Source of the DNA: an uncultured Ruminococcus sp.
GTDB lineage: Bacteria > Bacillota > Clostridia > Oscillospirales > Ruminococcaceae
NCBI GenBank assembly: GCA_946188175.1
Contig: CAMHUJ010000001.1
Span: forward strand, 1 to 29,156
DNA length: 29,156 bases
Direction of reading: 5' to 3'
Made by a program: the position numbers and the translations under genes
In this document: positions 5,804 through 29,156 of the stretch, one piece after another
Position numbering within the stretch: the stretch's first letter is position 1
Layout of the letters: each line of letters opens with the position of its first letter
The notes under the pieces: generated by a model
Told to the model about the DNA's origin: nothing
Database searches by the model: none
The model's input: only the letters and a program-made list of their open reading frames with translations

Positions 5804-6459
5804 TACAGAGATCCCTCCCTATATGAAAACGTGACCGAAGCGGACCCGGTGATCGTAACGACCAGCGACCCCTGCGTCAATCGCAACCCAGGAATGCGTA
5901 CCGTCGCCGGATACGAACTTGCAGACAACTGCTTCGAGTTCGTTCCCCAAGCAATCGTTACCGCACCACCGATTGTCACGTCCGGAACGACCGGCATTCT
6001 GCCATTCGTCAGCGTCACGGTCCCGCCTCCGGTTTTCGTCACCGTTGTCGCCGTTTTTTTGAATTTATACGGATAGACCAGAGCGCTCATCAGATGTGAA
6101 TGGTCCTTTGATTCGTATTCCGAGACCGTCAGTCGACCGGCCCAATAAAAATCCGGGTCGTTTGAAAACGAGATCTTCACGTCTTGCCCGTGATAGGCGT
6201 TCATGAATGATTGAAAATCCGATTGCCAAGAATCTGACGGATGTTTGCAGTCCAGCGCTAACGTACGAGGCTCATAAAACACCTCGCCAAATTCTTCTGT
6301 GCTGTCGAGCGATCCATTCATGCCAGGAATCTCGTCATAGATGACCTTCGGAGTCGGCGCCGACAGTTTCCGCCATTTCAAATACAGCCCGAACGTCGTG
6401 TCGACCGCAACAAAATCGTTGTCAGCCGGTCCTTTGATGTAAAGACGATCAATATTCAT
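5803..6459 (-). CDS. Distal tail protein (Dit)
   Basis: 218 aa directly after tape measure; EIPGMNGSLDSTE...YEPRTL and NDPDFYWAGRLTV motifs. Confidence 0.8.
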   Translation of the reverse strand: MNIDRLYIKGPADNDFVAVDTTFGLYLKWRKLSAPTPKVIYDEIPGMNGSLDSTEEFGEVFYEPRTLALDCKHPSDSWQSDFQSFMNAYHGQDVKISFSNDPDFYWAGRLTVSEYESKDHSHLMSALVYPYKFKKTATTVTKTGGGTVTLTNGRMPVVPDVTIGGAVTIAWGTNSKQLSASSYPATVRIPGLRLTQGSLVVTITGSASVTFSYREGSL

Positions 6460-17950: not shown

Positions 17951-18224
17951 TTGTTACCTCCTTAATAGCAAGGGCAGCATATCCTTCTTGCAGACCATAT
18001 CCGTGCAAAACATAAGTAATCTCATATTCACGATCCGCAACCGGATGCGATACTTTTTCGTCTCCATGCGGAAATTCAAGATAAGGTCCTCCAAGAACCG
18101 GAACAAACCGTATGCGATCTCCTTTCTGATAGCATCGATCATCTTTCCTGATCTCAAACGTCTTTTCTCCATTCAGCACGGCGTCGCAAAACTCTATCTT
18201 CAGTTTTATCCTATGGATCTTCAT
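17943..18224 (-). CDS. DUF3850 / ASCH-like domain protein
   Basis: 93 aa; IHRIKLKIEFCDAVLNGEKTFEIRKDDRCYQKGD...EITYVL...GLQEGYAAL. Confidence 0.85.
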   Translation of the reverse strand: MKIHRIKLKIEFCDAVLNGEKTFEIRKDDRCYQKGDRIRFVPVLGGPYLEFPHGDEKVSHPVADREYEITYVLHGYGLQEGYAALAIKEVTND

Positions 18225-18236
18225 ATTTCCACCTCC

Positions 18237-18265
18237 ACAATATCACATTTTTCTTGTCAAGTCAA
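18237..18265 (-). promoter_or_regulatory. SigA-type promoter for DUF3850-terminase genes, directly after the tRNA CCA end
   Basis: TTGACT (18265-18260), 17 nt, TG-n-TATTGT (18242-18237); an overlapping TTGACA lies 5 nt downstream. Confidence 0.55.
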
Positions 18266-18266
18266 A

Positions 18267-18343
18267 TGGTCGGGGATCCGCGATTCGAACGCGGGACCAC
18301 CGGTTTATAAGACCGGCACTCTAACCGGCTGAGTTAATCCCCG
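18267..18343 (-). tRNA. tRNA with anticodon UAU (tRNA-Ile, AUA-reading), 77 nt, encoded CCA
   Basis: CGGGGAT/ATCCCCG acceptor stem, ACTC/GAGT D-stem, CCGGT-CT TAT AA-ACCGG anticodon arm, CCGCG-TTCGAAT-CGCGG T-arm, discriminator A then CCA. Confidence 0.92.
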
Positions 18344-18350
18344 CCAATCC

Positions 18351-18524
18351 TCACATCTTCGGTCTGATCAGCACCGAGCCGTCAGCGCGAATGTCGATCT
18401 CATACTTGTCATTGTCCGGCTTCACCGGCTCCGGCTTCAGATCCGCGATCTTTTGTGCCGCTATGTCCGATCCGTCATGCAGCGCGATTTTGTACGCGTC
18501 TGCCTTTTTGATGTAGTCAGTCAT
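18351..18524 (-). CDS. Hypothetical protein (57 aa)
   Basis: MTDYIKKADAYKIAL start; ATG overlaps the end of the upstream ORF; AAAGGAG RBS. Confidence 0.6.
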   Translation of the reverse strand: MTDYIKKADAYKIALHDGSDIAAQKIADLKPEPVKPDNDKYEIDIRADGSVLIRPKM

Positions 18525-18845
18525 CGCTTCTCCTTTCTCCGTCAGCGCAGTACCAATCATCGGCTTGCACCTTGTTATGGTTCAACTCGCAAACATTGAA
18601 CCGCACGTTTTCTCCGTCAACATATCGATGTATGCACTCGCCGCACCGCACCACAGGCACAGCGTCAACGGTCGGCATAGCGTCAAGCGTCAGTTTCGCT
18701 TCGGCGAACACAGAAAAGCGGCACTTTTTTGACCATACATTTCCTCGTTATCCATTTCCCTTGCGGCGTTCATCAACTCCAAGCAAGCATCTTGCCGTGT
18801 TTTCATTTCAGCCGCATACGCATCCGCATCAATGTATCTGCTCAT
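18517..18845 (-). pseudogene. Frameshifted phage hypothetical gene (MSRYIDADA...MPTVDAVPVVRCGEC family)
   Basis: 5' half MSRYIDADAYAAEM...QKSAAFLCSPKRN* and 3' half SVFAEAKLTLDAMPTVDAVPVVRCGEC are in different frames, joined by a -1 shift in an A6 or T4 run near 18714-18730. Confidence 0.6.
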
Positions 18846-18850
18846 CGTGT

Positions 18851-19045
18851 TCACCTCTTAACATGGACTTTCGTGTCGATTCCTACCTTCTTTGCAATGT
18901 AGTTTGCGGCGTTCATATTGCCACAAGCATAGTAGTAATAATTTATTCTTCCGAATCCTTTCGGTGCGTTGTTTACATCGTCATACTCGTTTACGATATG
19001 CTCGATTGCCTTAACAACCTTTTTCTTGCTGATTAATCCGAACAT
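18851..19045 (-). CDS. Hypothetical protein (64 aa)
   Basis: ORF coupled to both neighbours; AGGAG RBS; lower GC. Confidence 0.6.
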   Translation of the reverse strand: MFGLISKKKVVKAIEHIVNEYDDVNNAPKGFGRINYYYYACGNMNAANYIAKKVGIDTKVHVKR

Positions 19046-19404
19046 TATTTATCTTCTCCTATCTTCATCTTTGCGCCGCAGTTCGGGCAGTAGTTCATGT
19101 TATTCTCGCTCGGTGTTCCTGCATTTAGCACCCACGGTTCTCCGCAAGCAGAACATACCCACGCATAACTGTTAAATCCCATTTCCGTTTCAATCCACTC
19201 GCCCTCTTTTGGCATCAGTTTCGCAATCCTCTTTTCATCCGCTTCAAGCGCGTAGGCGGCATCGCGCATCAGTTCTGCTTTGCATTCGTCCGTAATCATA
19301 TCTTCGTTCCACATTGGACATCTGTACGATTCATCAACGCACATTTCGTGCCGTTCGTCCTCGCTACCACACCACCGCAACGCCTTAATCAGTTCTGTGT
19401 TCAT
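19045..19404 (-). CDS. Hypothetical protein with C-terminal zinc ribbon
   Basis: 119 aa; EGEWIE...CSACG...NYCPNCGAKM. Confidence 0.75.
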   Translation of the reverse strand: MNTELIKALRWCGSEDERHEMCVDESYRCPMWNEDMITDECKAELMRDAAYALEADEKRIAKLMPKEGEWIETEMGFNSYAWVCSACGEPWVLNAGTPSENNMNYCPNCGAKMKIGEDK

Positions 19405-20321
19405 TCTGCGTCACCTCTCCTTTTGTATGCTTTTCGGTTCTCGTTTGAATAGTCCTCAAATCGCGTTGACCGATGCACGGCTTTATTGTTGCACCACCGC
19501 GCAAGCCGTTTCTGATCCTCGGTCGGCTCAATGTTGTTTGTGAAATCTCGGTACGGTTGTCCAAACGGTTGTACTCCGATCTCGTCCATCGCCATGATCC
19601 GCGCAATCGATTCCTCGACATCTTGAATCAGCGTGTAAACAAAGATTCGGTACGGCTTTACGCCGTTCTCTTCCAGGTACGAAACGCACCGTTTCAATAT
19701 CGGGATCATCGCGTATGTGTCGCATGCGAAGCGCAACGTGCCGTCAATCCACTTTTCCTTTGATAGAATCTTTGCGATCTCCGGCGTGACCAACCTTGCG
19801 TCCATAGCTTGATTGAAATCGATTCGGACATCCTTGCCGATCATGTCCTCGATCTGCGCGATTCCATGCTCCGACGCAAGCACGTTATTGTCGAGGAACA
19901 CGATGTCGCGCGAATCGGGACGCTTGATCTTGTCCCATGTGTTGACGGAGTGAATCCATCCCTCTTTCTTCGGTACGATGCACCACGGACATTTTCGGAT
20001 GCACCCTCGCGTCAAGAATCCGACCGCGAACGAATACTGCGGATAAAGCGAATAGTCGGGGAACGTATATTCGATCTCTGCCGGAAGATTTTCGTACAAT
20101 CCGTATCCTGTGCCACCCTTGACGATCTGCCTTGCGTTGATTGCCCATTGATAGTCCTCGGTGAATGTGAACACCTTGCTCATATACACCTTGTCATATT
20201 CGGGCATCAACGGTTCGTACCATTCCACCTCATCGCCTTGTGCTTTATGCCACGCGGACAGCTTCATCAGCGCAAGGTTCGGAAAGTTATGACCGTCAAC
20301 ATCGATCAATCCGATGTGCAT
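19401..20321 (-). CDS. Radical SAM protein
   Basis: CxxxCxxC motif (GCIRKCPWC); MHIGLIDVDGHNFPNLALMKLS start with GGAGG RBS; DNN and DFNQAMDARL motifs. Confidence 0.85.
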   Translation of the reverse strand: MHIGLIDVDGHNFPNLALMKLSAWHKAQGDEVEWYEPLMPEYDKVYMSKVFTFTEDYQWAINARQIVKGGTGYGLYENLPAEIEYTFPDYSLYPQYSFAVGFLTRGCIRKCPWCIVPKKEGWIHSVNTWDKIKRPDSRDIVFLDNNVLASEHGIAQIEDMIGKDVRIDFNQAMDARLVTPEIAKILSKEKWIDGTLRFACDTYAMIPILKRCVSYLEENGVKPYRIFVYTLIQDVEESIARIMAMDEIGVQPFGQPYRDFTNNIEPTEDQKRLARWCNNKAVHRSTRFEDYSNENRKAYKRRGDAE

Positions 20322-20368
20322 CCTTCCACCTCCGGCGCGTTCTCGCTGCACTTGATCCATTCACTCAT
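20306..20368 (-). pseudogene. Remnant of a DUF551-like gene (20 aa)
   Basis: GAGGAGG RBS; MSEWIKCSENAPEVEGCTSD*, overlapping the radical SAM start. Confidence 0.45.
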
Positions 20369-20380
20369 TGTGTCCTCCTC

Positions 20381-20584
20381 TCATTGCTGATCCTCCTTGC
20401 CCTTTCTAATCCACTCGACAAAATCCATCTTGCAATCGTCGCAAAGATCGAATTCGTAAAAGTCACTCAAAATAGATTCTTTAACCGCCGCATTTATAAT
20501 GATCTCTGGAAATTTCAAATTCATAAAAGACGGCTGCTTTTTTATCTCGGCGCCGCACCGATCACAAACGATTTTCTTTCCCAT
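20381..20584 (-). CDS. Small zinc-binding hypothetical protein
   Basis: 67 aa; CDRCG and DLCDDC pairs. Confidence 0.7.
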   Translation of the reverse strand: MGKKIVCDRCGAEIKKQPSFMNLKFPEIIINAAVKESILSDFYEFDLCDDCKMDFVEWIRKGKEDQQ

Positions 20585-20585
20585 T

Positions 20586-20834
20586 TCAACCCCTTCTTTT
20601 GAACTGACCGGCTACCGGACACGTCGACCAATGCGGAATGTATCCGGTCCCGGTTTCCTTTTCAGATCTCGGATCCAACTCGCAGCTGACAAGATCGCCC
20701 TGCCGCGTGACGATCTTCTGCTTTGCCTTTGGCGCTTCCCAGTACGGTACAAGCTCCGGATCGCACGGCATCGCCTTTCCTGATCGCGTCATGATCCAGA
20801 TGATCTCGCGACCGCACCCTTTGCACTTTCCCAT
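20586..20834 (-). CDS. Small Cys/His phage protein
   Basis: 82 aa; CKGCGREIIWI...GKAMPCD...PHWSTCP. Confidence 0.75.
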   Translation of the reverse strand: MGKCKGCGREIIWIMTRSGKAMPCDPELVPYWEAPKAKQKIVTRQGDLVSCELDPRSEKETGTGYIPHWSTCPVAGQFKRRG

Positions 20835-20837
20835 GAT

Positions 20838-21200
20838 TCACTCCTCCTTCAAAACATCTTTATTATCATCCTTGATCCCGAACGCTTTCAGAATCTTCTG
20901 CTTCGGAAAGAAAACGCTCTCCCATTCCGTTCCGTCATCCGTCTTGATCAGTTTCTTCATGTTCGTCAGCCGAAGTCCTCTCGGAGTGAAATCGTAGAAT
21001 GTCCATTGACCGAACAGAAGCGATTCTCCGTTGCCGCCTCGATACGATGAGAAATTGTCGCGCAGCCATTGGTCGAAGTTCTGCATATTGTGTCCGTGCC
21101 TGGATTCAAACGCTTTCACAGCTTCATACCACTTGACAATGTGTTCGATCAGCTCATCAAACGGATCTCGTTCTCCGAATAGATTCATTTGCTCGATCAT
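20838..21200 (-). CDS. Hypothetical protein (120 aa)
   Basis: AAGGAG RBS; coupled to neighbours. Confidence 0.7.
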   Translation of the reverse strand: MIEQMNLFGERDPFDELIEHIVKWYEAVKAFESRHGHNMQNFDQWLRDNFSSYRGGNGESLLFGQWTFYDFTPRGLRLTNMKKLIKTDDGTEWESVFFPKQKILKAFGIKDDNKDVLKEE

Positions 21201-21523
21201 CAGTATCTCCTTTTATACACGCCATAGGTCGAAGCGACCGCGATCAGATTGTTCAGCACCGACGTAGCCTCCGAAATATCGTGATGATGCACCGCCTGTT
21301 CAGCTGCACCGGCAAGCGACGCAAGGTCCGACCGGATCGAAATCAGCTGCGTGTGCTCATCATTCGCGTTCAGCGCCACACGAAGCGCATCAGCCAGGTC
21401 CTCATTGTTTCGATACTCGCGATCATACCGTGAGACACCACTCTCCTGATAGTTACGATATGCCGTGTCTGCCTTTTGCTGGTACCGATCAATCAGCTTT
21501 TTTAATGCCTTTGCGTCCATCAT
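21200..21523 (-). CDS. Hypothetical helical protein
   Basis: MMDAKALKK start overlaps the DUF3846 stop (ATGA); AAGGAG RBS. Confidence 0.7.
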   Translation of the reverse strand: MMDAKALKKLIDRYQQKADTAYRNYQESGVSRYDREYRNNEDLADALRVALNANDEHTQLISIRSDLASLAGAAEQAVHHHDISEATSVLNNLIAVASTYGVYKRRY

Positions 21524-21849
21524 TTCAGCATCTCCTTCCACGCCTTCAATGTGATTTCCTCCGGAAGATCCACGAAATCCTCCTCGCCCATACCAACTGC
21601 GATGATGTCCCCGACGAAGCTGACCGGATGCCGATGCGGTCCGAAATCTACCGTGCAGTTGTACGGCTTATCTTTCAACCGACCTTCTTCGTCACAGAGA
21701 ACCACAAACCTCCCAGCCGGATCCGTAACGCACTCGATATAACCACCGACCTGCGTCTGCAGATTCTTCAGCGTGTTGCTGATCCACGTCACATGACCAT
21801 ACTGTTCGTCCGCCCTTTTTACGATTGCCCTGATTTTTCCCATGATCAT
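21520..21849 (-). CDS. DUF3846 domain protein
   Basis: NTLKNLQTQVGGYIE...LCDEEGRLKDKPYN...FVGDII motif; start at ATGA overlap. Confidence 0.8.
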   Translation of the reverse strand: MIMGKIRAIVKRADEQYGHVTWISNTLKNLQTQVGGYIECVTDPAGRFVVLCDEEGRLKDKPYNCTVDFGPHRHPVSFVGDIIAVGMGEEDFVDLPEEITLKAWKEMLK

Positions 21850-22088
21850 TTCTCCTTTTCTTCTTCCTTGATCTTCAGATACGCAGCAACGACCGCGTTT
21901 TTTCTCCACTGCTCAACCATGCCAGGATTATTCTGCCGATACGCCCTCTGATAGTCTCTGATCTGCTGCCGATGATTTTCGCGATACCGCTTTTGAATAA
22001 CAGCAATCTTATCCTTGTTCTTCCGATAATACTCACGCCGCTTTTCGCGTTCTCGCTCTTGACGATCCTGAATCTCTTTTTCTGTCAT
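21846..22088 (-). CDS. Small basic helical protein
   Basis: 80 aa; REYYRKNKDKI...RYRENH...RAYRQNN repeats; AAAGGAGG RBS. Confidence 0.75.
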   Translation of the reverse strand: MTEKEIQDRQEREREKRREYYRKNKDKIAVIQKRYRENHRQQIRDYQRAYRQNNPGMVEQWRKNAVVAAYLKIKEEEKEK

Positions 22089-22111
22089 AGAAATCTCCTC
22101 CTTTCGTATAT

Positions 22112-22140
22112 ATCTTACACCATATATACATTACTGTCAA
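22112..22140 (-). promoter_or_regulatory. SigA-type promoter for the accessory gene cluster
   Basis: TTGACA (22140-22135), 17 nt, TAAGAT (22117-22112). Confidence 0.7.
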
Positions 22141-22399
22141 TATACTGTATAGAGATATTTTTTCAATTTACCATGATTTACCATAAAAATTATTAAACTG
22201 ATAAACTAAAAAATACCGATGAAATCAATGTTTTTTTGATGGGTTTAGCAGTTTATCATTTTTAACATCATTTTTTTGCTATATAGAAAATCAAATTCCT
22301 TTTCCACGACTTATCCACATTATCCACTTTTGGTTTCCCTTATATATACATAATACTTTTTTGGGATAAAACCGCTAAACCGATAAATCTGCATCCGGA
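22141..22399. other. AT-rich putative replication origin with DnaA-box-like and iteron-like repeats
   Basis: TTATCCACA at 22311-22319, TTATCCACT at 22320-22328, TTTTCCACG at 22300-22308; GATAAA..GCTAAAC motifs in both orientations; directly downstream of the helicase gene. Confidence 0.55.
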
Positions 22400-24217
22400 T
22401 CACCCTATCAGATCGCGCATTTCATCCTTGCAAATGCAGACGGTCGGCACAACCGTTCCGGCGATCAAAGCGTTCTTTGTTCGGCGTTCTTTGTCCGTTT
22501 TGAGGATCCCTTTTCTCTTCGCCCAGGACAGAAAAGACTTCGCATTGAACCCGGCATTTTGCATTTCACGGTCGAACACGGATTTTATCACAAAGATGTT
22601 ATTTGCCTCGACCTTTCCCCAAACTTCCGCCTTATACTCACCGAAATCATTCGGCTTGAAATGATTTGTGTTGACCGCAACCATTTCCATGACCCACTCG
22701 GCAGCGCGTACATTCGCGTCAATCTCTCCTCGCTTCGTCATCAGCCGGATCATTTCGTCAACCGTCAGTTGACATCCATCCTGGAAGAAAAGAGTGGACG
22801 CCACATAATCCGCAATCAAAATCGCCGATAAAGATGCAGCTTGTTTGTCCTCGCCTCCGGCCGCCTGCAGCTCGTGATAAATCTCTACACGCAGATCATT
22901 GATCATCTTCATGTTCTCCGGATCCCGAATGTACTCCACAAATTCACGGCCTGCAAAGCCGTAATTTTCGTTAATAATCGCGCAAAGACCGACCAGATCG
23001 GAATATATCTTATCCGCACATTCAATCTCGATCGCACGGACCGAAGCGCCGGACATAGAATTCGCATTGATGATCGGATATTCGCCGGTCGTCAGAATGC
23101 AATTCCTCCATGTGACGATCCTCCGGATGCCGCCGGTCTTTGTTCCACGAACACGGCCTTGCCCTTCGGTCAGCTTGTACAGAATCCGGTCATAGTCCTT
23201 AATACCGGACGCCGCCTGGATTTGCAGCTCGTCCATGCACATAGGCATACTGTTCAGGAACGCCGCAATCATCTCTTGACCGACATCGGTTGAATTGAAT
23301 GACATAACGTAATCGCCCAGCTTCGGTGACGCCCACACAGACGCAGCTATCATCAGCGACACGGTCTTGCCTGTGCCTTGACCGCCATATGCGTGAACGA
23401 AGAACGGCAGCAGTCCGCACGGCTCAATCAGCGCTGACGCGAAAGACGCCGCCAGGAAGATCCGACCGATGCTCTTTTCTGCACGGACCTTTTTCATTGC
23501 GTCAATCCATTTCTGACGATCTCCATCTGACCGGACAGAATTGAACATATGCCGGAAGTTCGCTTCTCCGTCAAAAATCAGCTTGTCAACATATGGAGAA
23601 AAGCCGTGATCGAGAACCCAACCAAGCCGACCGACAGAATGTTCCTCGCTTATCGTGTCATAATTCAACTGCTCCATAGTCAGCAGATACGATGACAGAA
23701 GCTTCGCGTTTTCACTCGTCACGACAACGCCATAAGCAGCCAGCTGCAGGATCTGATTCGATGACGCGACCACCGACTTTTCAATGATGATCGACCGCCA
23801 GGACCGCCCCTTCTTATATGCGATCTCCAGCCGCTCGTCTCCCTCATCAATATTGATCAACCTCCGCACCGGCATGATCGGATGGACGCAGATCGTGATT
23901 TCATAACCGAAACGATCGGACATCCGGACACCGTAATCGTCGCAAATATACTGACCTGAAAAAAGCTCAACCGGCTGCGCGTCAAACTTCGTCGCATTGT
24001 CAAGGCTCTGCCCCTGCTTCTTCATCGTACTCTCAAGATAGGCATTCCAAAGAGCCATGAATGTCCGAACACCGACTGCGCCGGCCTGCATCTTCATCCG
24101 CTGGATCTGCTGCTGCAACGCGAATTTATCATCCTTAAACTGCGCAAGCCAAGCATAAGGCTCCGATGTTGTCAAATACTGTTCAGCCGTAAACTCCGGC
24201 ATTATTGCCTGTTCCAT
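22400..24217 (-). CDS. DUF927-domain replicative helicase (Cch-like)
   Basis: 605 aa; Walker A GGQGTGKT, Walker B CMDELQ, TEGQGRVRG, ILTTGE. Confidence 0.85.
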   Translation of the reverse strand: MEQAIMPEFTAEQYLTTSEPYAWLAQFKDDKFALQQQIQRMKMQAGAVGVRTFMALWNAYLESTMKKQGQSLDNATKFDAQPVELFSGQYICDDYGVRMSDRFGYEITICVHPIMPVRRLINIDEGDERLEIAYKKGRSWRSIIIEKSVVASSNQILQLAAYGVVVTSENAKLLSSYLLTMEQLNYDTISEEHSVGRLGWVLDHGFSPYVDKLIFDGEANFRHMFNSVRSDGDRQKWIDAMKKVRAEKSIGRIFLAASFASALIEPCGLLPFFVHAYGGQGTGKTVSLMIAASVWASPKLGDYVMSFNSTDVGQEMIAAFLNSMPMCMDELQIQAASGIKDYDRILYKLTEGQGRVRGTKTGGIRRIVTWRNCILTTGEYPIINANSMSGASVRAIEIECADKIYSDLVGLCAIINENYGFAGREFVEYIRDPENMKMINDLRVEIYHELQAAGGEDKQAASLSAILIADYVASTLFFQDGCQLTVDEMIRLMTKRGEIDANVRAAEWVMEMVAVNTNHFKPNDFGEYKAEVWGKVEANNIFVIKSVFDREMQNAGFNAKSFLSWAKRKGILKTDKERRTKNALIAGTVVPTVCICKDEMRDLIG

Positions 24218-24236
24218 GACCGGCTCCTTTCCTGAT

Positions 24237-24277
24237 AAAAAACCTGGGATTCAAAGTGACGGCTTCAAATCCCAGGT
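24237..24277 (-). terminator. Intrinsic terminator-like hairpin in the helicase leader
   Basis: 14-bp stem ACCUGGGAUUUGAA/UUUGAAUCCCAGGU, 8-nt loop GCCGUCAC, followed by a U run. Confidence 0.7.
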
Positions 24278-24335
24278 AAAATAGTCTTGTGTTCTATTCA
24301 CCGTCTCCGGCGCCGTCACACCTTCGACTATTTTT
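24237..24335 (-). ncRNA. Candidate structured cis-regulatory leader RNA (two stems with complementary loops, GNRA hairpin)
   Basis: P1 AAAAUAGUC/GACUAUUUU; internal CGCCG-GAGA-CGGUG; GUGACGGC (24319-24312) complementary to the P2 loop GCCGUCAC. Confidence 0.55.
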
Positions 24336-24339
24336 CTTA

Positions 24340-24368
24340 ATTATACCGCAGAAAAATGAGAATGTCAA
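24340..24368 (-). promoter_or_regulatory. SigA consensus promoter for the helicase
   Basis: TTGACA (24368-24363), 17 nt, TATAAT (24345-24340). Confidence 0.85.
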
Positions 24369-24934
24369 CTCGCAAAGCGCTTTTTCTCAAATTCCGCAAG
24401 CGCCTCAAGCGCTTCATCAGCTCTTGCACGCGCCCGATCACGCCTTGACGCAGCAATCACAAAGCATTCGGACCATTCTTCGTCCGGATCCTTTGGCGCC
24501 GCTTCCGAATACGCAAGTTCTATCAGCCGCAGCGCATACAAAGCGTCGTTCCATTCGGTGACCAGTTTCGCGTACTGTTCTTCAAGCTCTCTCTCGCGCC
24601 GCCTGCGTTCCCATGCTTCGCGGTTTTGGGCGATTCGCTCTGCGTTCGACAGATTACCTTCTCGAATCAAACCAAGCCGAAAATCGTCGTTCAGGCGCTT
24701 ACACGCGTCGCCAACGGAGCAGTCGAACAGTTTCATGACCAGATCGATCACAGAACCGGACGCTCCGCAGCCGAAACAATGGAATCCGCGTTCGCCTTTG
24801 TATGCTTTGAACGATGCTGTTTTCTCGTTATGGAACGGACAGCGAGCAAAACCGTGATAATTCAGTTCGATGCCGTAATGACTGCACGCATCCTGACAGG
24901 AAACGCGCTTCTTAATTTCCGTGCTGATCCTCAT
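24365..24934 (-). CDS. CHC2 zinc-finger (DnaG primase zinc-binding domain) protein
   Basis: 189 aa; ARCPFHNEKTASF...FHCFGCGASGSVIDLV; no TOPRIM domain. Confidence 0.85.
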   Translation of the reverse strand: MRISTEIKKRVSCQDACSHYGIELNYHGFARCPFHNEKTASFKAYKGERGFHCFGCGASGSVIDLVMKLFDCSVGDACKRLNDDFRLGLIREGNLSNAERIAQNREAWERRRRERELEEQYAKLVTEWNDALYALRLIELAYSEAAPKDPDEEWSECFVIAASRRDRARARADEALEALAEFEKKRFAS

Positions 24935-25388
24935 GATACTCCCCTTTCAAAATTTCCATGATCGTCTTACCAGTGGACAGTTTGTCACAGAACAGGAACT
25001 TCACTCCATAAGCCATCCGGATCCGGAACATCTCCCGAACCAGCGCCGCGCCGGTGACCGGAGAATGCTTCGACCGCCAGCGCAGCACATCTTCCGTTCC
25101 TTTAATTCCGCGATGCTCGATCAGCACGATCAGCGTGATCCGCGCCGCATAAGCACGTCGAACCTCGCGCATGAATCGGGCGTGATCTTCGCGGTTCGTC
25201 AGATTCTTCGCCAGCTCGTCAAGGTTCTGTTTACGGTCAACGGAGATCGATCCGCCTTCCAGCATATAGTCCCCAACGTCCAGCGCCTGAACGCGGTATT
25301 CGATACCGTGCCGGTCAAAGTACGCTTTGAGATGCCGGTCCGCGTTTCCGGCCTGCGTCCACTTCTCGCGACTATCAACGATCAACAT
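24912..25388 (-). CDS. ERCC4-domain nuclease (putative resolvase)
   Basis: 158 aa; IVDSREK...LDVGDY...DRKQNLDEL motif. Confidence 0.85.
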   Translation of the reverse strand: MLIVDSREKWTQAGNADRHLKAYFDRHGIEYRVQALDVGDYMLEGGSISVDRKQNLDELAKNLTNREDHARFMREVRRAYAARITLIVLIEHRGIKGTEDVLRWRSKHSPVTGAALVREMFRIRMAYGVKFLFCDKLSTGKTIMEILKGEYHEDQHGN

Positions 25389-25536
25389 CTTCTTCGATGC
25401 GGTAGATCTTACCGTTGCATTCGAACCGTCCGCGTTCTACATATCGAGTGATGACTTTTCCGTTCACGATCGCCCAGAACATGAACCAAACGGCAAAACC
25501 CAACAGAAAACCGATGAGAATTCCGATCCAGATCAC
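25375..25536 (-). CDS. Small membrane protein (53 aa; not in ORF track)
   Basis: GTG start overlapping the upstream TGA; MIWIGILIGFLLGFAVWFMFWAIVNGKVITRYVERGRFECNGKIYRIEEDVDR; one hydrophobic helix. Confidence 0.65.
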   Translation of the reverse strand: MIWIGILIGFLLGFAVWFMFWAIVNGKVITRYVERGRFECNGKIYRIEEDVDR

Positions 25537-26432
25537 GCAGACGCCCCCTTGTTGATGCCGTTGACCGCGTTCGTCAAATCGGACGCCTGTTCTTCATTGC
25601 CGAACCAGGACGCGACCGTGCTGTCCTTGTCTTTGATCGAATTATAGATCCCGACATACTCGGCAAACTCCTCGCCGGTCATCGTATCGACCTTGTGCTT
25701 CAGGCGCTTTTCGATCTGATCCTGTTTGACACCGATTGACGAGAATGTCGCAACCATCATTCTGACGCGATCGATCAGCGGCATATTGTTCTTGCTGTCG
25801 CCCTTCGCGACCGTGTCCTTGCATTTCTGCACGGCAGCGTCAACCAACCAAGCCGGAAGAATCGCAAGGATCCTCGCACGGAGACGCCGAGCAGCCATGT
25901 TCGCATTGTTCTCATAGATGTCACGATCGGACGTCAGCGTGACCATCTTCTTTCCGGCTTCACGCTGATGCGGATTCGTGAAATTCTGCACCGACTGTGT
26001 GTTCGTCTCAAGATCCCACGCATACGCCTGAAGCTCCGATTTCCCCGCGTCACGGCTCAATTCCTTGATTCCGTAATCGACATTGCCCCAGCATCGCGCC
26101 AATTCCTCCGCAAACCGAATATTCGGTCCTGTGATCGTCTGACCGCTTCGCGGAAACGCATAAAACGCTTTTGACGCGAAACCATACCGGCTGCAGACCT
26201 CCATAACAGAAGCATAAGCAGCTGTCTCGTCACGCGGAAACGCCTTTGCAATATAAAGCTTGCCCTGCGCTTCTGCAACCGCCCTGGATGCTTCAATCGC
26301 GACCGTGCCCTGATTGATGTTCTGCAGCTGCATCGGAACAGCTGCCGGAGCAGCCGGAGCGACCGTCTGCGCCTGTTCTTCCGGTTCGTAGATCTCACCG
26401 GTCACCGGATCCATAAGATTCTTTTCTTCCAT
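25533..26432 (-). CDS. Conserved phage protein, putative single-strand annealing / recombination protein
   Basis: 299 aa near the exonuclease; AKAFPRDE...FYAFPRSG..ITGPNIRFAEELARCWGN...AWDLETN; function inferred from context. Confidence 0.5.
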   Translation of the reverse strand: MEEKNLMDPVTGEIYEPEEQAQTVAPAAPAAVPMQLQNINQGTVAIEASRAVAEAQGKLYIAKAFPRDETAAYASVMEVCSRYGFASKAFYAFPRSGQTITGPNIRFAEELARCWGNVDYGIKELSRDAGKSELQAYAWDLETNTQSVQNFTNPHQREAGKKMVTLTSDRDIYENNANMAARRLRARILAILPAWLVDAAVQKCKDTVAKGDSKNNMPLIDRVRMMVATFSSIGVKQDQIEKRLKHKVDTMTGEEFAEYVGIYNSIKDKDSTVASWFGNEEQASDLTNAVNGINKGASA

Positions 26433-26435
26433 GAT

Positions 26436-26711
26436 TCATTCCTCCAATTCATCAATGATTTCTTGTAATGATTTACCGCAAAAATCGTGTTCTGCATAAA
26501 TGTCATAGGGATCATGATCTCCGTCGTATTGATACCGCGCAATCTCCGCAGCAGATCGAGACGATATATACGATCCTGTGTTGCCGGAAACATAAGCGGA
26601 ACAATCTTCGGTGCAGTTTCTTCCAAATGTATGCCCTTTGCTTCTTCCGATTTTTTGCAATCGTCTGCAAGCTTTCAAATGGATACAATCATCCATGCAT
26701 TCAAAAGCCAT
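26436..26711 (-). CDS. Cys-rich hypothetical protein (91 aa)
   Basis: MAFECMDDCIHLKAC start at TAATG overlap with AAGGAG RBS (ORF-track start at 26807 is too early); lower GC. Confidence 0.7.
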   Translation of the reverse strand: MAFECMDDCIHLKACRRLQKIGRSKGHTFGRNCTEDCSAYVSGNTGSYISSRSAAEIARYQYDGDHDPYDIYAEHDFCGKSLQEIIDELEE

Positions 26712-27511
26712 TATTGCAACTCCTTCGCCAAGTATGCCGGAAGCCCAAGCACATTGATCTGATTCTGCGGTCCGAGATAACCATACCAGTTTCCGGACGT
26801 CTTGCAATCGTGATAGATGCCAAGCAGTTCGCGGAACGTATCATATCCGCGCTGCACAAGCAGCTGATCGGCTGCAAGCACATTTACCGCATACGGCGGA
26901 TCCTTCTCCTGCGCGATGAAGATGAACACCGCATCCCGATCCATGACACGCCGAACTGCCTCGGTGTACATAGCCGCCTGGAAGTCATAGCCGTAATTGA
27001 TCGCGGACCGGATGAACGATTCAGTCGACGCATCGCTCGTCGTTTTGTAGTCGATCACGACCGCACCGCTCGACAATGGCGTGAAGCAGTCCAACCGGAC
27101 CTTGCACTTTTCGCCGGTGAGCTCATCGGTCCAGAACAGTGGGATCTCATGCTTGCCGGACAGCAGCTTCATGACCATATCGTTTTGCATCAGCGCATTC
27201 CGCATTCCGACCGCTTTGTCATAGTCAGCGGATTTCACGATCATCTTTTCACCATTCATCTCCATGAACAGATCCCATGCTGCCTTGCCTTCCTTTGTCC
27301 GTCGGTCACAGTCCGGAGCGACCGCAAACTCATCGCCGAACGTCTCCGGCTCCAGGACAAGCTTGTGAGCCATCTGACCGAAGATCAAAGCCGGTGTCAG
27401 CTCTTCCGGGTGCTGCTCCTCATACATGAATTTCTCCGGCGATCCTTCATGAAGACGCCACAACTGCGACCGGCTGACACCTTCCGCTGCGCGGTATTCC
27501 TGTTCAGTCAT
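26711..27511 (-). CDS. PD-(D/E)XK exonuclease (DUF3799 / RecE-like)
   Basis: 266 aa; EYRAAEGVSRS, KVRLD, IDYKTT, YGYDFQAAMY motifs. Confidence 0.88.
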   Translation of the reverse strand: MTEQEYRAAEGVSRSQLWRLHEGSPEKFMYEEQHPEELTPALIFGQMAHKLVLEPETFGDEFAVAPDCDRRTKEGKAAWDLFMEMNGEKMIVKSADYDKAVGMRNALMQNDMVMKLLSGKHEIPLFWTDELTGEKCKVRLDCFTPLSSGAVVIDYKTTSDASTESFIRSAINYGYDFQAAMYTEAVRRVMDRDAVFIFIAQEKDPPYAVNVLAADQLLVQRGYDTFRELLGIYHDCKTSGNWYGYLGPQNQINVLGLPAYLAKELQ

Positions 27512-27650
27512 GCTGAACCTCCTTTTCTTCCAGCACGATCATCCGGATATAAGCGCTGACGGCCAGATGACGCGCAGCCGCTTTTTCCTTGATCTTCTCC
27601 AGTTCTTCCACAGAAACGCGGATGTAGATACGTTCGTTTTTGCCTTCCAT
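27504..27650 (-). CDS. Ribbon-helix-helix DNA-binding protein (48 aa; not in ORF track)
   Basis: AAGGAGGT RBS; MEGKNERIYIRVSVEELEKIKEKAAARHLAVSAYIRMIVLEEKEVQHD; beta-strand IYIRV then two helices with S-x-Y-I-R. Confidence 0.8.
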   Translation of the reverse strand: MEGKNERIYIRVSVEELEKIKEKAAARHLAVSAYIRMIVLEEKEVQHD

Positions 27651-27671
27651 AGTGACCTCCTTTTTTCTTTT

Positions 27672-27700
27672 ATTATATCACAAACGGCGTACAATGTCAA
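27672..27700 (-). promoter_or_regulatory. SigA consensus promoter with extended -10 for the RHH-recombination operon
   Basis: TTGACA (27700-27695), 17 nt, TG-n-TATAAT (27677-27672). Confidence 0.88.
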
Positions 27701-28143
27701 TCGTTTGTTTCCCTATACAGGACGTCTCCGGCTTCGCAGCCGTGATATTTGAGATAGTCAAATCCGTCGACCGGACGGACCTTTGCACGATCTTTCAGCG
27801 CTGCAAGCATCAGATCGTTAATCTCGGATTCCGTAAAAAACGACGCAAGGAAACTATTCAAGCAGCATTCCGATCCTTCCGATTCGCCGACCTTTGTGCA
27901 GAAATCCAAATCAAAGCGCTTTTTTTCGATGCATCCACTGCAAACCATGTGTTCGCAACCTTTGATTTCATCCTCCGGCACGATCTCCTCGCAAATCTCG
28001 CACCGATACGCCGGTTGCACATCTCCGCCGCAATAGCGGCACGTCATCGTATCGTCATATTCGCAGCAGACCTCGTTCGGATCAAGCTCTCTGCCGCAAC
28101 GGTCACAGATATAACCGTCCGGAATACTGTATTCATTGATCAT
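27697..28143 (-). CDS. Multi-CxxC zinc-finger protein
   Basis: CDRC, CRYC, CEIC and CSGC pairs; start at ATGA overlap (MINEYS). Confidence 0.75.
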   Translation of the reverse strand: MINEYSIPDGYICDRCGRELDPNEVCCEYDDTMTCRYCGGDVQPAYRCEICEEIVPEDEIKGCEHMVCSGCIEKKRFDLDFCTKVGESEGSECCLNSFLASFFTESEINDLMLAALKDRAKVRPVDGFDYLKYHGCEAGDVLYRETND

Positions 28144-28487
28144 TTTTCTGACCCCCATTTCGTCAATTGTTTTTTATCCTGTTCCAACTGCACAACCCGT
28201 GCCGTCAGCCGGGCAATCTCTGCCTGCGCTTTTTCCAGCGCAATCTTTCCGTCTTGCTTCGCCGCGAACAGATCAACCTTCAACCGTTTGATCTCCGCGT
28301 CCTTACGAACTATCAGAGTTTCCTTCGTTTCAACCGCGCCTTTCAACTGCCGAATCCGCGCCTTGCGCTTTTTCTCTGTGCGTCTGTCCAGCGTCAGGAT
28401 CAGAACCGCAATCAGCATGACCCCGCACAGGATCAAACCGATAATCGCCGGATTCGCGTTCGCCGCGTCAATGAATCGCTGCAGCAT
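28140..28487 (-). CDS. Membrane-anchored coiled-coil protein
   Basis: GGAGG RBS then MLQRFIDAA; hydrophobic IIGLILCGVMLIAVLIL segment then a heptad-rich helix. Confidence 0.7.
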   Translation of the reverse strand: MLQRFIDAANANPAIIGLILCGVMLIAVLILTLDRRTEKKRKARIRQLKGAVETKETLIVRKDAEIKRLKVDLFAAKQDGKIALEKAQAEIARLTARVVQLEQDKKQLTKWGSEK

Positions 28488-28644
28488 TTTGATCGCCTCC
28501 TTCGTCAACCCATTTCACAAAATACTTGCCCGTGATTTTTCCGTGTCCAGCCATCAGATCCCGCGCCAAATCGCACGTCATGCCAGCCGTAACGACCTCG
28601 TAACCGTCCTCGAACGTGAACCGATACCATGCGTCGCGTTTCAT
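28468..28644 (-). CDS. Hypothetical protein (58 aa)
   Basis: GGAGGTGG RBS; MKRDAWYRFTFEDGY start at ATGA overlap. Confidence 0.65.
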   Translation of the reverse strand: MKRDAWYRFTFEDGYEVVTAGMTCDLARDLMAGHGKITGKYFVKWVDEGGDQNAAAIH

Positions 28645-28742
28645 GCGTCCACCTCCTGTTCGTTGAACCGTTCGATCGCGTCCCACACGTCGCGCTCCTC
28701 TTGCGCTGTTTCCATCAACCATTCAAGATATGCTTCTGACAT
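28641..28742 (-). CDS. Small acidic protein (33 aa; not in ORF track)
   Basis: AAAGGGG RBS; MSEAYLEWLMETAQEERDVWDAIERFNEQEVDA; stop overlaps the next ATG. Confidence 0.5.
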   Translation of the reverse strand: MSEAYLEWLMETAQEERDVWDAIERFNEQEVDA

Positions 28743-28788
28743 GTTGTTCCCCTTTCTGCCCGTGTTGCCGATAGCGCAGCGAAGTTTG

Positions 28789-29156
28789 TTATTTCTCCGG
28801 ATCAGCAACGAAGCCGTTGTCGATCATGAATTCCGTATCTTCGTCATAACAGCCATTGCACCAATAAGACCGAGGATGTTGCATAAGCATTTCCGCATGA
28901 TAGAAATCCTTTTCAAAAATGGCGTCTTTGCGGAACCATGCGGTGACGGTCGCCTTCGGATTCTTGTACCTCGGATCGCCATAGCCCCGAACGCAACGCT
29001 CGACCTGATAGATCGTCGCGCCGTCGCGCTTCCAGGCGCTCGCTTTGACCGTGTCGCTGTTCACTCTCGCCACATCCGCGCCGAAGCGCTTTAAAATATC
29101 GACCACGGCGCGGTCGCCCTGTTTTGACGACAGGTTCAGCCCGGTCACCGCGACTT
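28789..29156 (-). CDS. ORF open to the window edge: AroA-like segment in frame with an unrelated, probably phage, C-terminus
   Basis: VAVTGLNLSSKQGDRAVVDILKRFGADV resembles the EPSP synthase S-x-QGD region; downstream WKRDGATIYQVERC... is not AroA-like. Confidence 0.55.
   Translation of the reverse strand, partial: VAVTGLNLSSKQGDRAVVDILKRFGADVARVNSDTVKASAWKRDGATIYQVERCVRGYGDPRYKNPKATVTAWFRKDAIFEKDFYHAEMLMQHPRSYWCNGCYDEDTEFMIDNGFVADPEK

What the first reader, a model, noticed from the sequence alone, without database searches (positions are those of the whole stretch)
24218..24345. Kissing-loop leader RNA with terminator controlling the replicative helicase
Seen: a perfect promoter is followed by a ~115-nt leader. 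P1 (AAAAUAGUC 24334-24326 / GACUAUUUU 24286-24278) encloses GUGACGGC and a GAGA-tetraloop hairpin. P2 is a 14-bp stem whose entire 8-nt loop GCCGUCAC is the exact complement of GUGACGGC, and it ends in a U run 7 nt before the AAAGGAG RBS. Established: plasmid rep genes are controlled by leader pseudoknots (IncI/IncB) and attenuators (pT181). Inference: a riboswitch-like or antisense-regulated attenuator in which loop-loop pairing decides read-through into the helicase. I do not recognise it as a named motif; this is the best candidate here for an undescribed system.
Basis: partly seen in the sequence, partly recalled or inferred. Interest (0 to 1): 0.8.

Follow-up and report, generated by a model that had tools for sequence, protein, structure and literature searches.

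The report
Kissing-loop terminator leader RNA family
In front of this rumen phage's replication helicase gene lies a roughly 100-base leader RNA with its own strong promoter, whose transcription-stop hairpin pairs through its tip with the start of the RNA; about 50 related phage copies keep this pairing with different letters, so it is a real and uncatalogued RNA control element.

Summary

It is not chance. I found 52 distinct copies in related bovine-gut/rumen Clostridia phages.
- All lie on the coding strand.
- Each has its own near-consensus promoter ending 5-8 nt before the RNA.
- Each ends about 20 nt before a start codon.
- The loop-loop pairing is kept in 19 different core sequences. 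It was 100% paired on an unfitted alignment, and 85% on an alignment made by a model that cannot see it.

New here: the 5' strand has two mutually exclusive partners, both supported by covariation, so the 5' domain is a switch.

No Rfam family matches. There are no conserved ligand-pocket bases and no antisense promoter.

The element is not helicase-specific. It heads replication-module genes: helicase, Zn-ribbon primase-like protein, homing endonuclease, methylase. Phages carry 1-3 copies with different loop sequences.

Best reading: a cis-acting transcription gate (attenuator). How it is set is inferred, not shown.

This scan has met the same architecture before in other phage groups. I found no paper describing it.

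The parts
24340..24368 (-). Sigma-70-type promoter: TTGACA (24368-24363), 17-nt spacer, TATAAT (24345-24340). The -35 box overlaps the stop codon of the upstream Zn-ribbon gene. The predicted start is about 24334.
   Evidence: 12/12 match. All 50 distinct family copies have such a promoter, mean 10.3/12, with the -10 box ending mostly 5-8 nt before P1.
24326..24334 (-). Strand A: the 5' strand of P1 (AAAAUAGUC) and the 5' end of the RNA. Its last three bases, GUC, also belong to the alternative hairpin H1.
   Evidence: P1 is 94.8% paired with 11 of 11 pairs changed on both sides across 34 copies.
24312..24319 (-). PK5': GUGACGGC, the partner of the terminator loop.
   Evidence: It is invariant in all 11 close relatives while the flanking stems vary.
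24303..24328 (-). Alternative early hairpin H1: GUC (24328-24326) with GAC (24305-24303), GGUGU (24322-24318) with GCGCC (24313-24309), loop GACG. It is mutually exclusive with P1, P1b and P1a.
   Evidence: The truncated-transcript fold gives -11.2 kcal/mol, z = -1.9 against shuffled partners. RNAalifold chooses it for the window's own subgroup, with CG to UA compensation. The family-wide equivalent is 96.4% paired with 8 of 11 pairs changed on both sides.
24299..24312 (-). P1a hairpin: CGCCG, GAGA loop, CGGUG. It is followed by the conserved A-rich joining motif AAUAG (24298-24294).
   Evidence: Relatives carry CACC/GGUG and CACCG/CGGUG variants. The AAUA-type motif recurs across the family.
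24278..24286 (-). Strand A': the 3' strand of P1 (GACUAUUUU). It abuts P2 with no linker.
   Evidence: The linker is 0-1 nt in 29 of 42 distinct copies.
24242..24277 (-). P2: a 14-15 bp intrinsic-terminator hairpin. Its loop GCCGUCAC (24263-24256) is PK3'.
   Evidence: P2 is 90.3% paired with 19 of 19 pairs changed on both sides. Seven pairs are compensated within the window's own subgroup.
24237..24241 (-). U-tract of the terminator: six U counting the last stem base.
   Evidence: In 32 of 48 distinct copies at least 5 of the 8 bases after the GC-rich stem are U; in five others the fold has drawn the U-run into the stem.
24215..24230 (-). RBS AAAGGAG (24230-24224) and the ATG (24217-24215) of the helicase gene.
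   Evidence: The start codon lies about 20-23 nt after the end of the model match in nearly all copies.
22400..24217 (-). Downstream gene: a 605-aa DUF927 + HTH_56 (Cch-type) primase/helicase.
   Evidence: PF06048 1.5e-38, PF18662 1.5e-16; phrog_8841 5e-137.
24365..24934 (-). Upstream gene: a 189-aa CHC2 zinc-ribbon (DnaG-type) protein, the last gene of the early operon.
   Evidence: (PF01807 1.2e-16).
24238..24329 (-). Match of the family covariance model R3.
   Evidence: 37.8 bits, E = 3e-6; it is the only match in the 2.6-Mb assembly.

Best explanation
The element is a cis-acting, promoter-proximal leader RNA (an attenuator, or 'gate') at the head of the phage's replication genes.

RNA polymerase starts at a strong constitutive promoter, and the transcript begins with strand A.
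1. Strand A first pairs with the next complementary segment, forming hairpin H1. In most family members H1 displays the purine-rich PK5' sequence in its loop.
2. About 25 nt later a second, better partner (A') is made. It can displace the first and form the longer helix P1.
3. Directly behind comes a canonical intrinsic terminator, P2. Its pyrimidine-rich apical loop is complementary to PK5'.

The RNA therefore has two roughly equal-energy states.
- 'Kissed': H1 is locked to the terminator loop and A' is single-stranded.
- 'P1': the long 5' helix is stacked under a free terminator.

I infer that the choice between the states sets how many polymerases stop after about 100 nt and how many read on into the helicase gene (or, in relatives, the primase-like gene). 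My leaning, which is weak, is that cis-kissing slows terminator closure and so favours read-through, while the P1 state favours termination.

Shown: the parts, their conservation and covariation, the two exclusive helices, the promoter, and the fixed spacing to the start codon.

Inferred: that termination is conditional, the direction of the effect, and what sets the switch (folding kinetics, a phage or host factor, or the terminated leader itself acting in trans).
For: Anatomy.

Family:
- There are 52 distinct copies. All R2/R3 model matches lie on the gene-sense strand, and there are none in loci of more distant helicase clades.

Covariation:
- P1 94.8%, loop-loop pairing 85.1% and P2 90.3% paired, with 0 of 500 shuffles reaching the observed scores and slid controls at 35-50%.
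- On a plain MAFFT alignment the loop-loop pairing is 100% paired, with 4 of 7 pairs changed on both sides.
- Each of 25 distinct loops has at least 6 nt of perfect complement in its own 5' domain. The mean is 7.0 against 4.2 for other copies' domains, and shuffled loops reach 6 in 7% of trials.

Switch:
- The alternative helix A:mid is 96.4% paired with 8 of 11 pairs changed on both sides.
- It is more stable than shuffled controls, mean z = -2.2.
- It is also the RNAalifold consensus of the window's own subgroup.

RNA level, sense strand:
- The sense fold is more stable in 52 of 52 copies, and 13-26% of pairs are G-U.

Leader rather than free-standing gene:
- The promoter ends 5-8 nt before P1.
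- The start codon lies about 20-23 nt after the element.
- The order is promoter then terminator, the reverse of an insulator.

Terminator: a GC-rich stem followed by a U-tract in most copies.

State balance and geometry:
- dG(P1 domain) minus [dG(H1) + dG(loop-loop duplex)] is -0.04 +/- 3.3 kcal/mol.
- P2 arm length (12-26 nt) is uncoupled from the fixed PK5' position. This fits kissing with A' as a free linker.
Against: - There is no RNA evidence at all. No RNA run holds the sequence, and the one metatranscriptome-labelled run gave only contig pieces.
- The kissing covers only the loop and does not overlap the terminator stem, so no classical antiterminator is visible. How kissing would change termination is unknown.
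- The energy balance uses a plain duplex energy for the kissing. The H1/kissing anticorrelation (r = -0.41) is partly built in, because the kissing bases were forced unpaired.
- In the window's own subgroup H1 is weaker (z = -1.9) and buries half of PK5'.
- Sequences are related, so shuffle controls overstate significance.
Confidence: 0.55

Rival explanations
1. Self-addressed feedback in trans. The terminated leader of about 100 nt accumulates and pairs, loop to loop, with nascent leaders carrying the same sequence 'address'. As phage genomes multiply, expression of the replication genes is throttled. This would be a sense-encoded counterpart of plasmid countertranscript control and of the phage P4 CI RNA. 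It may coexist with the cis gate.
For: - A strong promoter followed by a terminator should make the short RNA abundant.
- One RNA carries both complementary sequences.
- Copies within one phage always use different addresses: L005 has 3, L088 has 3, and L148, L181, L097 and L165 have 2 each.
- The element sits in the replication module.
- P2 length is uncoupled from the 5' domain.
Against: - Covariation cannot separate cis from trans pairing.
- With 19 addresses in use, different addresses within one genome are expected by chance.
- There is no expression data.
- The conserved H1/P1 switch is not needed by this model alone.
Confidence: 0.15
2. Target of a processive antiterminator or of RNA polymerase itself, in the manner of lambda Q at PR'-tR', lambda N at nut, or HK022 put RNA. 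The folded 5' domain would be bound by a phage protein or by polymerase, which then ignores P2 and later terminators. The kissing would only shape the binding surface.
For: - The position directly behind a strong promoter and before a terminator matches these systems.
- The shape is conserved while the sequence is free.
- put RNA is likewise two stems just behind early promoters (PMC9378689).
Against: - No antiterminator-like gene was found among the ten window ORFs between 19401 and 28158 that I scanned. The remaining ORFs, including several small early ones, were not scanned.
- In the put paper the search words 'pseudoknot' and 'kissing' never occur, and its terminators are described as lying further downstream.
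- A protein site would be expected to keep some bases constant. None is invariant.
Confidence: 0.12
3. A stand-alone small RNA, or a purely structural 5' cap. The compact knotted fold would protect the transcript from 5' exonucleases and mark a module boundary, or the short RNA would have an unrelated job. Read-through would be fixed and unregulated.
For: - The 5' end is base-paired from the first nucleotide.
- The element sits at module boundaries where homing endonucleases lodge and public assemblies branch.
- Promoter/stem-loop cassettes (PeSLs) are known at such boundaries in T4-like phages (PMC4122927).
Against: - Two mutually exclusive helices, both maintained by compensatory change, are hard to explain without a switch.
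- The tight, constant spacing to the next start codon argues for a leader.
- A stabiliser has no need for a terminator.
Confidence: 0.1
4. A small-molecule riboswitch whose ligand stabilises the loop-loop contact, as in guanidine-IV.
For: The layout is similar: a 5' hairpin loop contacting the loop of a terminator-associated hairpin.
Against: - No invariant bases. The contact sequences themselves vary in 19 versions.
- No Rfam match, even at E up to 10.
- There are up to three copies per phage, in front of unrelated genes.
Confidence: 0.03
5. A DNA-level feature (operator or iteron inverted repeats), or a chance palindrome.
For: The element lies over and just behind a promoter. Strands A, mid and A' look like one inverted and two direct repeats.
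Against: - There is a strong strand asymmetry: G-U pairs are tolerated and the sense fold is better in 52 of 52 copies.
- The kissing sequence always sits exactly in the apical loop of a hairpin.
- Shuffled and slid controls fail.
Confidence: 0.02

Closest known systems
Lambdoid late unit PR' - 6S RNA - tR' (Q-dependent antitermination)
   Same: A strong constitutive promoter, a short terminated leader RNA, and downstream genes expressed only by read-through.
   Different: No Q-like protein or Q-binding DNA element was identified. The lambda 6S leader has no covarying loop-loop contact and no three-strand switch (this rests on my own knowledge). The element here heads replication genes, not late genes.
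Guanidine-IV (mepA) and cobalamin (L5-L13) riboswitches: kissing loops that control an expression platform
   Same: A loop-loop contact between a 5' hairpin and a hairpin of the terminator or expression platform, coupled to the transcription outcome.
   Different: Those loops are conserved because they build or sense a ligand pocket (my own knowledge). Here the loops vary in 19 versions, no base is invariant, and no Rfam model matches.
Satellite phage P4 CI RNA (seqB with seqA/seqC) and P1/P7 c4 RNA (Rfam C4)
   Same: Leader-encoded RNA whose short sequences pair with complementary sites in the same operon's transcript and act through termination. The pairing sequences differ between related phages.
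   Different: No match to the Rfam C4 model. No processing signal is known. Here the partner is the terminator's own loop. The architecture of H1/P1 switch plus P2 is different.
Countertranscript attenuators of plasmids (pT181, pIP501/pAMbeta1) and the IncI-alpha/IncB repZ leader pseudoknot
   Same: Control of replication genes in a leader through loop-initiated RNA pairing, with a terminator or a pseudoknot.
   Different: No antisense promoter. No conserved leader peptide: the frame is not kept within the window's subgroup. The pseudoknot partner is the terminator loop, not a site beside the RBS.
HK022 put RNA
   Same: A two-domain folded RNA immediately behind early promoters, cis-acting, with little sequence conservation.
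   Different: In the put paper the search words 'pseudoknot' and 'kissing' never occur, and its terminators are described as lying further downstream (PMC9378689). Its function through the beta' zinc-binding domain cannot be tested here.
PeSL promoter/stem-loop cassettes of T4-like phages
   Same: A compact promoter plus stem-loop unit at boundaries of gene modules. It is associated with mosaicism and with mobile genes lodging next to it.
   Different: PeSLs are described as simple composite promoter-terminator motifs that mediate recombination (PMC4122927). No kissing contact or switch is described for them.
Kissing-loop terminator leaders noted earlier by this scan (Flavobacterium/Bacteroidota phages, AT-rich phages, a spirochaete element)
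   Same: The same logic: promoter, 5' hairpin, terminator whose loop pairs with the 5' hairpin loop, variable 'addresses', several copies per phage, and replication-module boundaries.
   Different: Different hosts (here Clostridia of the bovine gut). No shared sequence was found by the look-up. The second partner A' (the H1/P1 switch) does not appear in the summaries of those notes that I saw. Whether the families are homologous or convergent is untested.

Membership tests
Any Rfam 15 family (4227 models) | Score at or above the family's gathering threshold | tested here: not met
   In the window only a tRNA passes. A permissive scan of 24100-24500 gave only two chance-level hits, E 1.8 and 2.4. 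Twenty related loci carrying the element gave 0 matches.
Intrinsic (Rho-independent) terminator | GC-rich hairpin immediately followed by a U-tract | tested here: met
   P2 at 24277-24242 has 15 pairs, 6 of them GC, followed by TTTTT. In 32 of 48 distinct copies at least 5 of the next 8 bases are U, and the mean hairpin energy is -23 kcal/mol. Termination itself was not measured.
Transcription attenuator with alternative RNA folds | Mutually exclusive helices, each maintained by selection | tested here: met
   A:A' (P1) is 94.8-96.5% paired. A:mid (H1) is 96.4% paired with 8 of 11 pairs changed on both sides. Both use the same bases of strand A.
Transcription attenuator with alternative RNA folds | One alternative fold overlaps, and so excludes, the terminator stem | tested here: not met
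   Complementarity to P2 is confined to the 6-9 nt at its apex. A' abuts the P2 stem but does not overlap it.
Riboswitch (e.g. guanidine-IV, ZTP, cobalamin) | Highly conserved unpaired bases forming a ligand pocket | tested here: not met
   No invariant column and only 3 nearly invariant columns in 33 copies. The loop sequences vary.
C4 antisense RNA / P4 CI RNA | Match to the C4 covariance model; processed stable RNA with target sites flanking it | tested here: not met
   No Rfam match. Processing cannot be tested with these tools.
Countertranscript-driven attenuator (pT181 type) | Antisense promoter producing an RNA complementary to the leader | tested here: not met
   The best antisense promoter score averages 8.0/12, against 7.2 in control DNA and 10.3 for the sense promoters. 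The sense fold is favoured in 52 of 52 copies.
IncI-alpha/IncB repZ leader | Translated leader peptide, and a pseudoknot between a hairpin loop and a site next to the RBS | tested here: not met
   The reading frame is not conserved among the 11 closest copies: 2-3 nt indels fall in the candidate frame. The loop's partner lies 5' of the loop, not at the RBS.
HK022 put-type polymerase-modifying RNA | Binds the beta' zinc-binding domain and confers terminator resistance without protein factors | not testable with these tools
   Only position and two-domain shape can be compared.
This family itself (model R3) | Promoter, A / PK5' / mid / A', then P2 with a complementary loop, a U-tract, and a start codon about 20 nt on | tested here: met
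   The window matches R3 at 37.8 bits, E = 3e-6. All parts are present.

The most novel reading that the evidence does not exclude
The leader is a sense-encoded, self-addressed dosage sensor. The short terminated RNA made from each copy pairs in trans, through its variable 'address' of about 4-8 nt, only with nascent leaders of the same address. It tips their H1/P1 switch towards termination. Each replication-module operon would then measure its own gene dosage without any antisense gene or protein. Kissing-loop terminator leaders of this kind would be a general, so far undescribed regulatory principle of phages in several bacterial phyla.
Probability: 0.15. Interest if true: 0.9.

Novelty: new variant of a known kind. 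Interest (0 to 1): 0.72.

Why it matters
Leader RNAs that decide between stopping and reading on are a classic form of gene control. The known ones sense a ligand, a ribosome, a tRNA, a protein or an antisense RNA.

This family has none of those hallmarks. It combines a terminator whose loop is held by the 5' end of the same RNA with a conserved two-partner switch and a freely evolving pairing 'address'. It sits in front of the genes that start phage DNA replication.

If the gate works as proposed, it would explain how these uncultured gut phages time or dose replication genes from constitutive promoters. It would also add a compact, orthogonal, sequence-programmable terminator switch to the parts list for synthetic biology.

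The same architecture has turned up in this scan in unrelated phage groups. The principle may therefore be widespread yet undescribed.

Tried and rejected
- blastn of the element against 50,697 phage records: no match.
- Single-protein scan of IMG/VR: no pattern hit. An alignment query was needed.
- nhmmer with the element found only one relative (L027), so sequence search is too weak.
- A loose structural descriptor was not specific: 395 hits against 424 in a reverse-not-complement control. Only a strict filter was usable.
- RNAalifold on a MAFFT alignment of all 33 copies gave no structure because the helices were out of register. This was solved by seeding a covariance model from one subgroup and iterating.
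- Order-level genome search with R3 found 0 of 151 genomes. Under its stricter filters it also missed the window's own copy, so it is uninformative.
- Sequencing runs: no RNA holder. Laying four runs gave only contig pieces, with nothing about transcript ends or levels.
- Test for rigid intramolecular geometry: P2 arm length does not correlate with the position of PK5' (r = 0.16, not significant). I therefore dropped the idea that kissing happens with P1 formed and stacked.
- Energy-balance test: mean difference near 0, but the permutation support is weak (p = 0.09 for |ddG|, p = 0.013 for the spread of H1 + kissing) and partly built in. I treat it as suggestive only.
- Pairing of the terminator loop with the downstream RBS or start: seen in single cases by eye, not general, and not computed systematically.
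- Leader peptide: a 22-codon frame opens at GUG inside PK5', but the SD spacing is 1-2 nt and indels break the frame in close relatives. Rejected.
- Literature searches found no description of such an element: DUF927 with RNA motif; kissing loop with terminator, phage and leader; put RNA; PeSL. The library is incomplete, so this is not proof of novelty.

Full report
**1. The observation**

- promoter TTGACA-17-TATAAT (24368-24340);
- P1 (24334-24326 with 24286-24278);
- GUGACGGC (24319-24312);
- a GAGA-loop hairpin;
- a 14-15 bp hairpin (24277-24242) whose 8-nt loop GCCGUCAC is the exact complement of the 5' 8-mer;
- a U-run, AAAGGAG, and the ATG at 24217.

The promoter is one of only two 12/12 matches in the 18000-29156 region I scanned, and P2 is the best terminator-like site there. 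The fold is far more stable than shuffles, -43.6 against -27.4 +/- 3.3 kcal/mol, z = -4.9. In a single sequence an 8-mer and its complement are not rare enough to prove anything: there are 4 occurrences against 1.3 expected. The question had to be settled by comparison.

**2. Context**

The window is an entire 29-kb contig of a 525-contig MAG. It reads as a phage with all the genes I annotated on the minus strand. Upstream of the element, in order, lie:
- an early operon behind the other perfect promoter (27700-27672);
- a DUF3799/RecE-like exonuclease;
- a phrog_3657 protein;
- an ERCC4 nuclease;
- a CHC2 zinc-ribbon protein.

The element follows, and then a 605-aa DUF927 + HTH_56 primase/helicase. 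DNA holders of the sequence are bovine-gut and other gut metagenomes.

**3. Relatives**

The helicase has thousands of homologues, many on 35-41 kb contigs. With an alignment of 20 of them I fetched about 200 loci from IMG/VR, GTDB genomes and metagenomes.

Reading the upstream regions showed the same architecture with quite different letters. For example:
- GUGGUGG/CCACCAC (L002, L009);
- UGGGCAAG/CUUGCCCA (L003);
- GGUUGCAG/CUGCAACC (L007);
- GGUGGAGC/GCUCCACC (L088).

A strict structural scan and three rounds of covariance-model building (R1 to R3) brought the set to 52 distinct copies. All R2/R3 matches lie on the helicase-sense strand. The window's copy scores 37.8 bits, E = 3e-6. Loci of more distant helicase clades have none.

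No Rfam family matches the window, the element at E up to 10, or 20 related loci.

**4. The pairing is real**

On the model-made alignment of 34 copies:
- P1 is 94.8% paired, with 11 of 11 pairs changed on both sides;
- P2 is 90.3% paired, with 19 of 19 pairs changed on both sides;
- the loop-loop helix is 85.1% paired, with 4 of 7 pairs changed on both sides. The model cannot see this helix, so the alignment was not fitted to it.

No shuffle out of 500 reaches the observed values, and slid controls give 35-50%.

On a plain MAFFT alignment of eight copies the loop-loop helix is 100% paired, with 4 of 7 pairs changed on both sides.

Each of 25 distinct loops has at least 6 nt of perfect complement in its own 5' domain. 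The mean is 7.0, against 4.2 for other copies' domains, and shuffled loops reach 6 in only 7% of trials. There are 19 core versions. The outer pairs are nearly constant and the middle roughly 4 positions vary, like an address.

Within the window's own subgroup of 11 sequences both 8-mers are invariant, while seven P2 pairs are compensated.

The structure belongs to the sense RNA. The sense fold beats the antisense in 52 of 52 copies, mean -47.8 against -35.8 kcal/mol, because 13-26% of pairs are G-U. This excludes a DNA palindrome or an antisense RNA as the selected object.

**5. What the element is attached to**

Every copy has its own strong promoter: mean 10.3 of 12 matches, usually a 17-nt spacer. 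The -10 box mostly ends 5-8 nt before P1, so the RNA starts at strand A. The next start codon lies about 20-23 nt behind the end of the model match in nearly all copies. In at least 32 of 48 distinct copies P2 is followed by a U-tract.

The downstream gene is most often the DUF927 helicase. It can also be the CHC2 zinc-ribbon gene (where that gene abuts the helicase), a NUMOD3 homing endonuclease lodged between element and helicase, a C5 DNA methylase, a Mom-like protein, or small ORFs.

Four of five complete phage records matched the model, with one to three copies each, all near the helicase (the fifth, L003's record, was missed by that search although R2 matches its locus). Copies in one phage always differ in their address. 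The window and its whole assembly hold one copy.

The element is therefore a leader of replication-module transcription units, not a helicase-specific device. The order, promoter and then terminator, is the reverse of a simple insulator.

**6.

When the transcript is folded only up to the point before the 3' strand of P1 is made, strand A pairs with the segment just behind PK5'. This gives a hairpin H1 of -10 to -17 kcal/mol that in most copies displays PK5' in its loop.
- The alternative helix is 96.4% paired with 8 of 11 pairs changed on both sides on the unfitted alignment, against 25-55% when slid.
- It is more stable than shuffled-partner controls: mean z = -2.2, with 28 of 48 below -2.
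- It is rich in G-U pairs, 26%.
- In the window's subgroup it takes the form GUC/GAC plus GGUGU/GCGCC, is the RNAalifold consensus, and shows CG to UA compensation. It is weaker there (z = -1.9) and buries half of PK5'.

P1 and H1 use the same bases of strand A, so they exclude each other.

**7. Geometry and energy**

PK5' sits 13 +/- 1.5 nt from the 5' end and the 5' domain is about 52 nt long. The P2 arm ranges from 12 to 26 nt with no correlation between the two (r = 0.16), and the P1-P2 linker is usually 0-1 nt. A rigid P1-on-P2 stack could not keep one kissing geometry over that range. Kissing between H1 and P2, with the roughly 25-30 nt J + A' segment as a free tether, could.

The P1 domain's energy equals H1 plus a loop-loop duplex to within -0.04 +/- 3.3 kcal/mol. 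This is suggestive of a balanced two-state system. The estimate is crude and partly built in.

**8. Mechanism**

I conclude that this is a cis-acting gate on transcription into the replication genes, with a 'kissed' state (H1 bound to the P2 loop, A' free) and a 'P1' state.

That the states differ in termination efficiency is inference, as is my weak leaning that kissing favours read-through. What sets the switch is also inference. It could be folding kinetics, a factor, or the terminated leader itself.

The kissing does not overlap the terminator stem, so no textbook antiterminator exists. This is the main gap.

Rivals:
- trans feedback by the terminated leader, which is compatible with the gate and attractive because of the private addresses;
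- a Q/N/put-like antitermination target;
- a structural cap or stand-alone sRNA;
- a riboswitch, made unlikely by the absence of conserved bases;
- a DNA-level feature, excluded by the strand asymmetry.

There is no conserved antisense promoter.

**9. Known systems**

In function the element most resembles the lambdoid PR'-6S-tR' unit, the kissing-loop expression platforms of the guanidine-IV and cobalamin riboswitches, and the P4 CI and P1 c4 RNAs. It fails the testable defining features of each (see the membership table).

In the put RNA paper the search words 'pseudoknot' and 'kissing' never occur, and its terminators are described as lying further downstream. PeSL cassettes share the module-boundary position but are described as simple promoter-terminator motifs.

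This scan has already noted leaders with the same logic in Flavobacterium/Bacteroidota phages, AT-rich phages and a spirochaete element. Those are unchecked AI notes. They agree with my reading but are not independent evidence, and no sequence link was found. I found no paper describing such an element.

**10. Verdict**

- Right: a structured, covarying, uncatalogued kissing-loop terminator leader.
- Wrong or unsupported: riboswitch, antisense control, helicase specificity.

It is a new family, and with the H1/P1 switch a new variant, of leader attenuator RNA. Its working remains to be shown at the bench.

Noticed in passing
L006:1843-2499; L005:2164-2500: A homing-endonuclease-type gene (NUMOD3 motif) is lodged between the leader element and the helicase gene in L006. 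In L005 an extra coding stretch occupies the same slot. The element seems to be a preferred landing site, and it lends its promoter to the insert.
   Followed up: partly
L005:1450-1548, 2164-2265, 5731-5830; L088:1392-1484, 2309-2399, 5142-5232: Single phages carry three copies of the leader around the replication module. Each has a different loop 'address': CCGUCA, CUACCAC and CUGGUAC in L005; GCCCCUAAC, GCUCCACC and CCGUCA in L088.
   Followed up: partly
window 27504-27700 (-): There is a second perfect promoter (TTGACA-17-TATAAT with a TG extension, 27700-27672). It is followed directly by an RBS and a 48-aa ORF whose sequence looks ribbon-helix-helix-like. It has no structured leader, so it is probably the start of the early operon that ends at the element's terminator.
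   Followed up: no
window 24294-24298 and the equivalent joining strand in relatives: An A-rich unpaired motif (AAUA, often ACAA...AAUA) is kept just before the 3' strand of P1 across subgroups. It could dock in a helix groove or act as a pause-like signal. It remains unexplained.
   Followed up: no
all family copies (loop of P2 and PK5'): The terminator loop is always pyrimidine-rich and starts with C, and the 5' partner is always purine-rich and Shine-Dalgarno-like. The reverse arrangement never occurs. The reason for this polarity is unknown.
   Followed up: no
window 24214-24243, about 24347 and about 24412: Contigs of related strains in public gut metagenome assemblies break or diverge at the edges of the element. 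This fits its position at a mosaic module boundary.
   Followed up: no
window 18270-18343 (-): A tRNA gene scoring 68 bits. Its anticodon loop reads CUUAUAA, i.e. anticodon UAU (isoleucine AUA). It lies between the early/replication genes and the rest of the contig.
   Followed up: no
If it is right, the gated operon ends at the origin. I did not check it.
   Followed up: no
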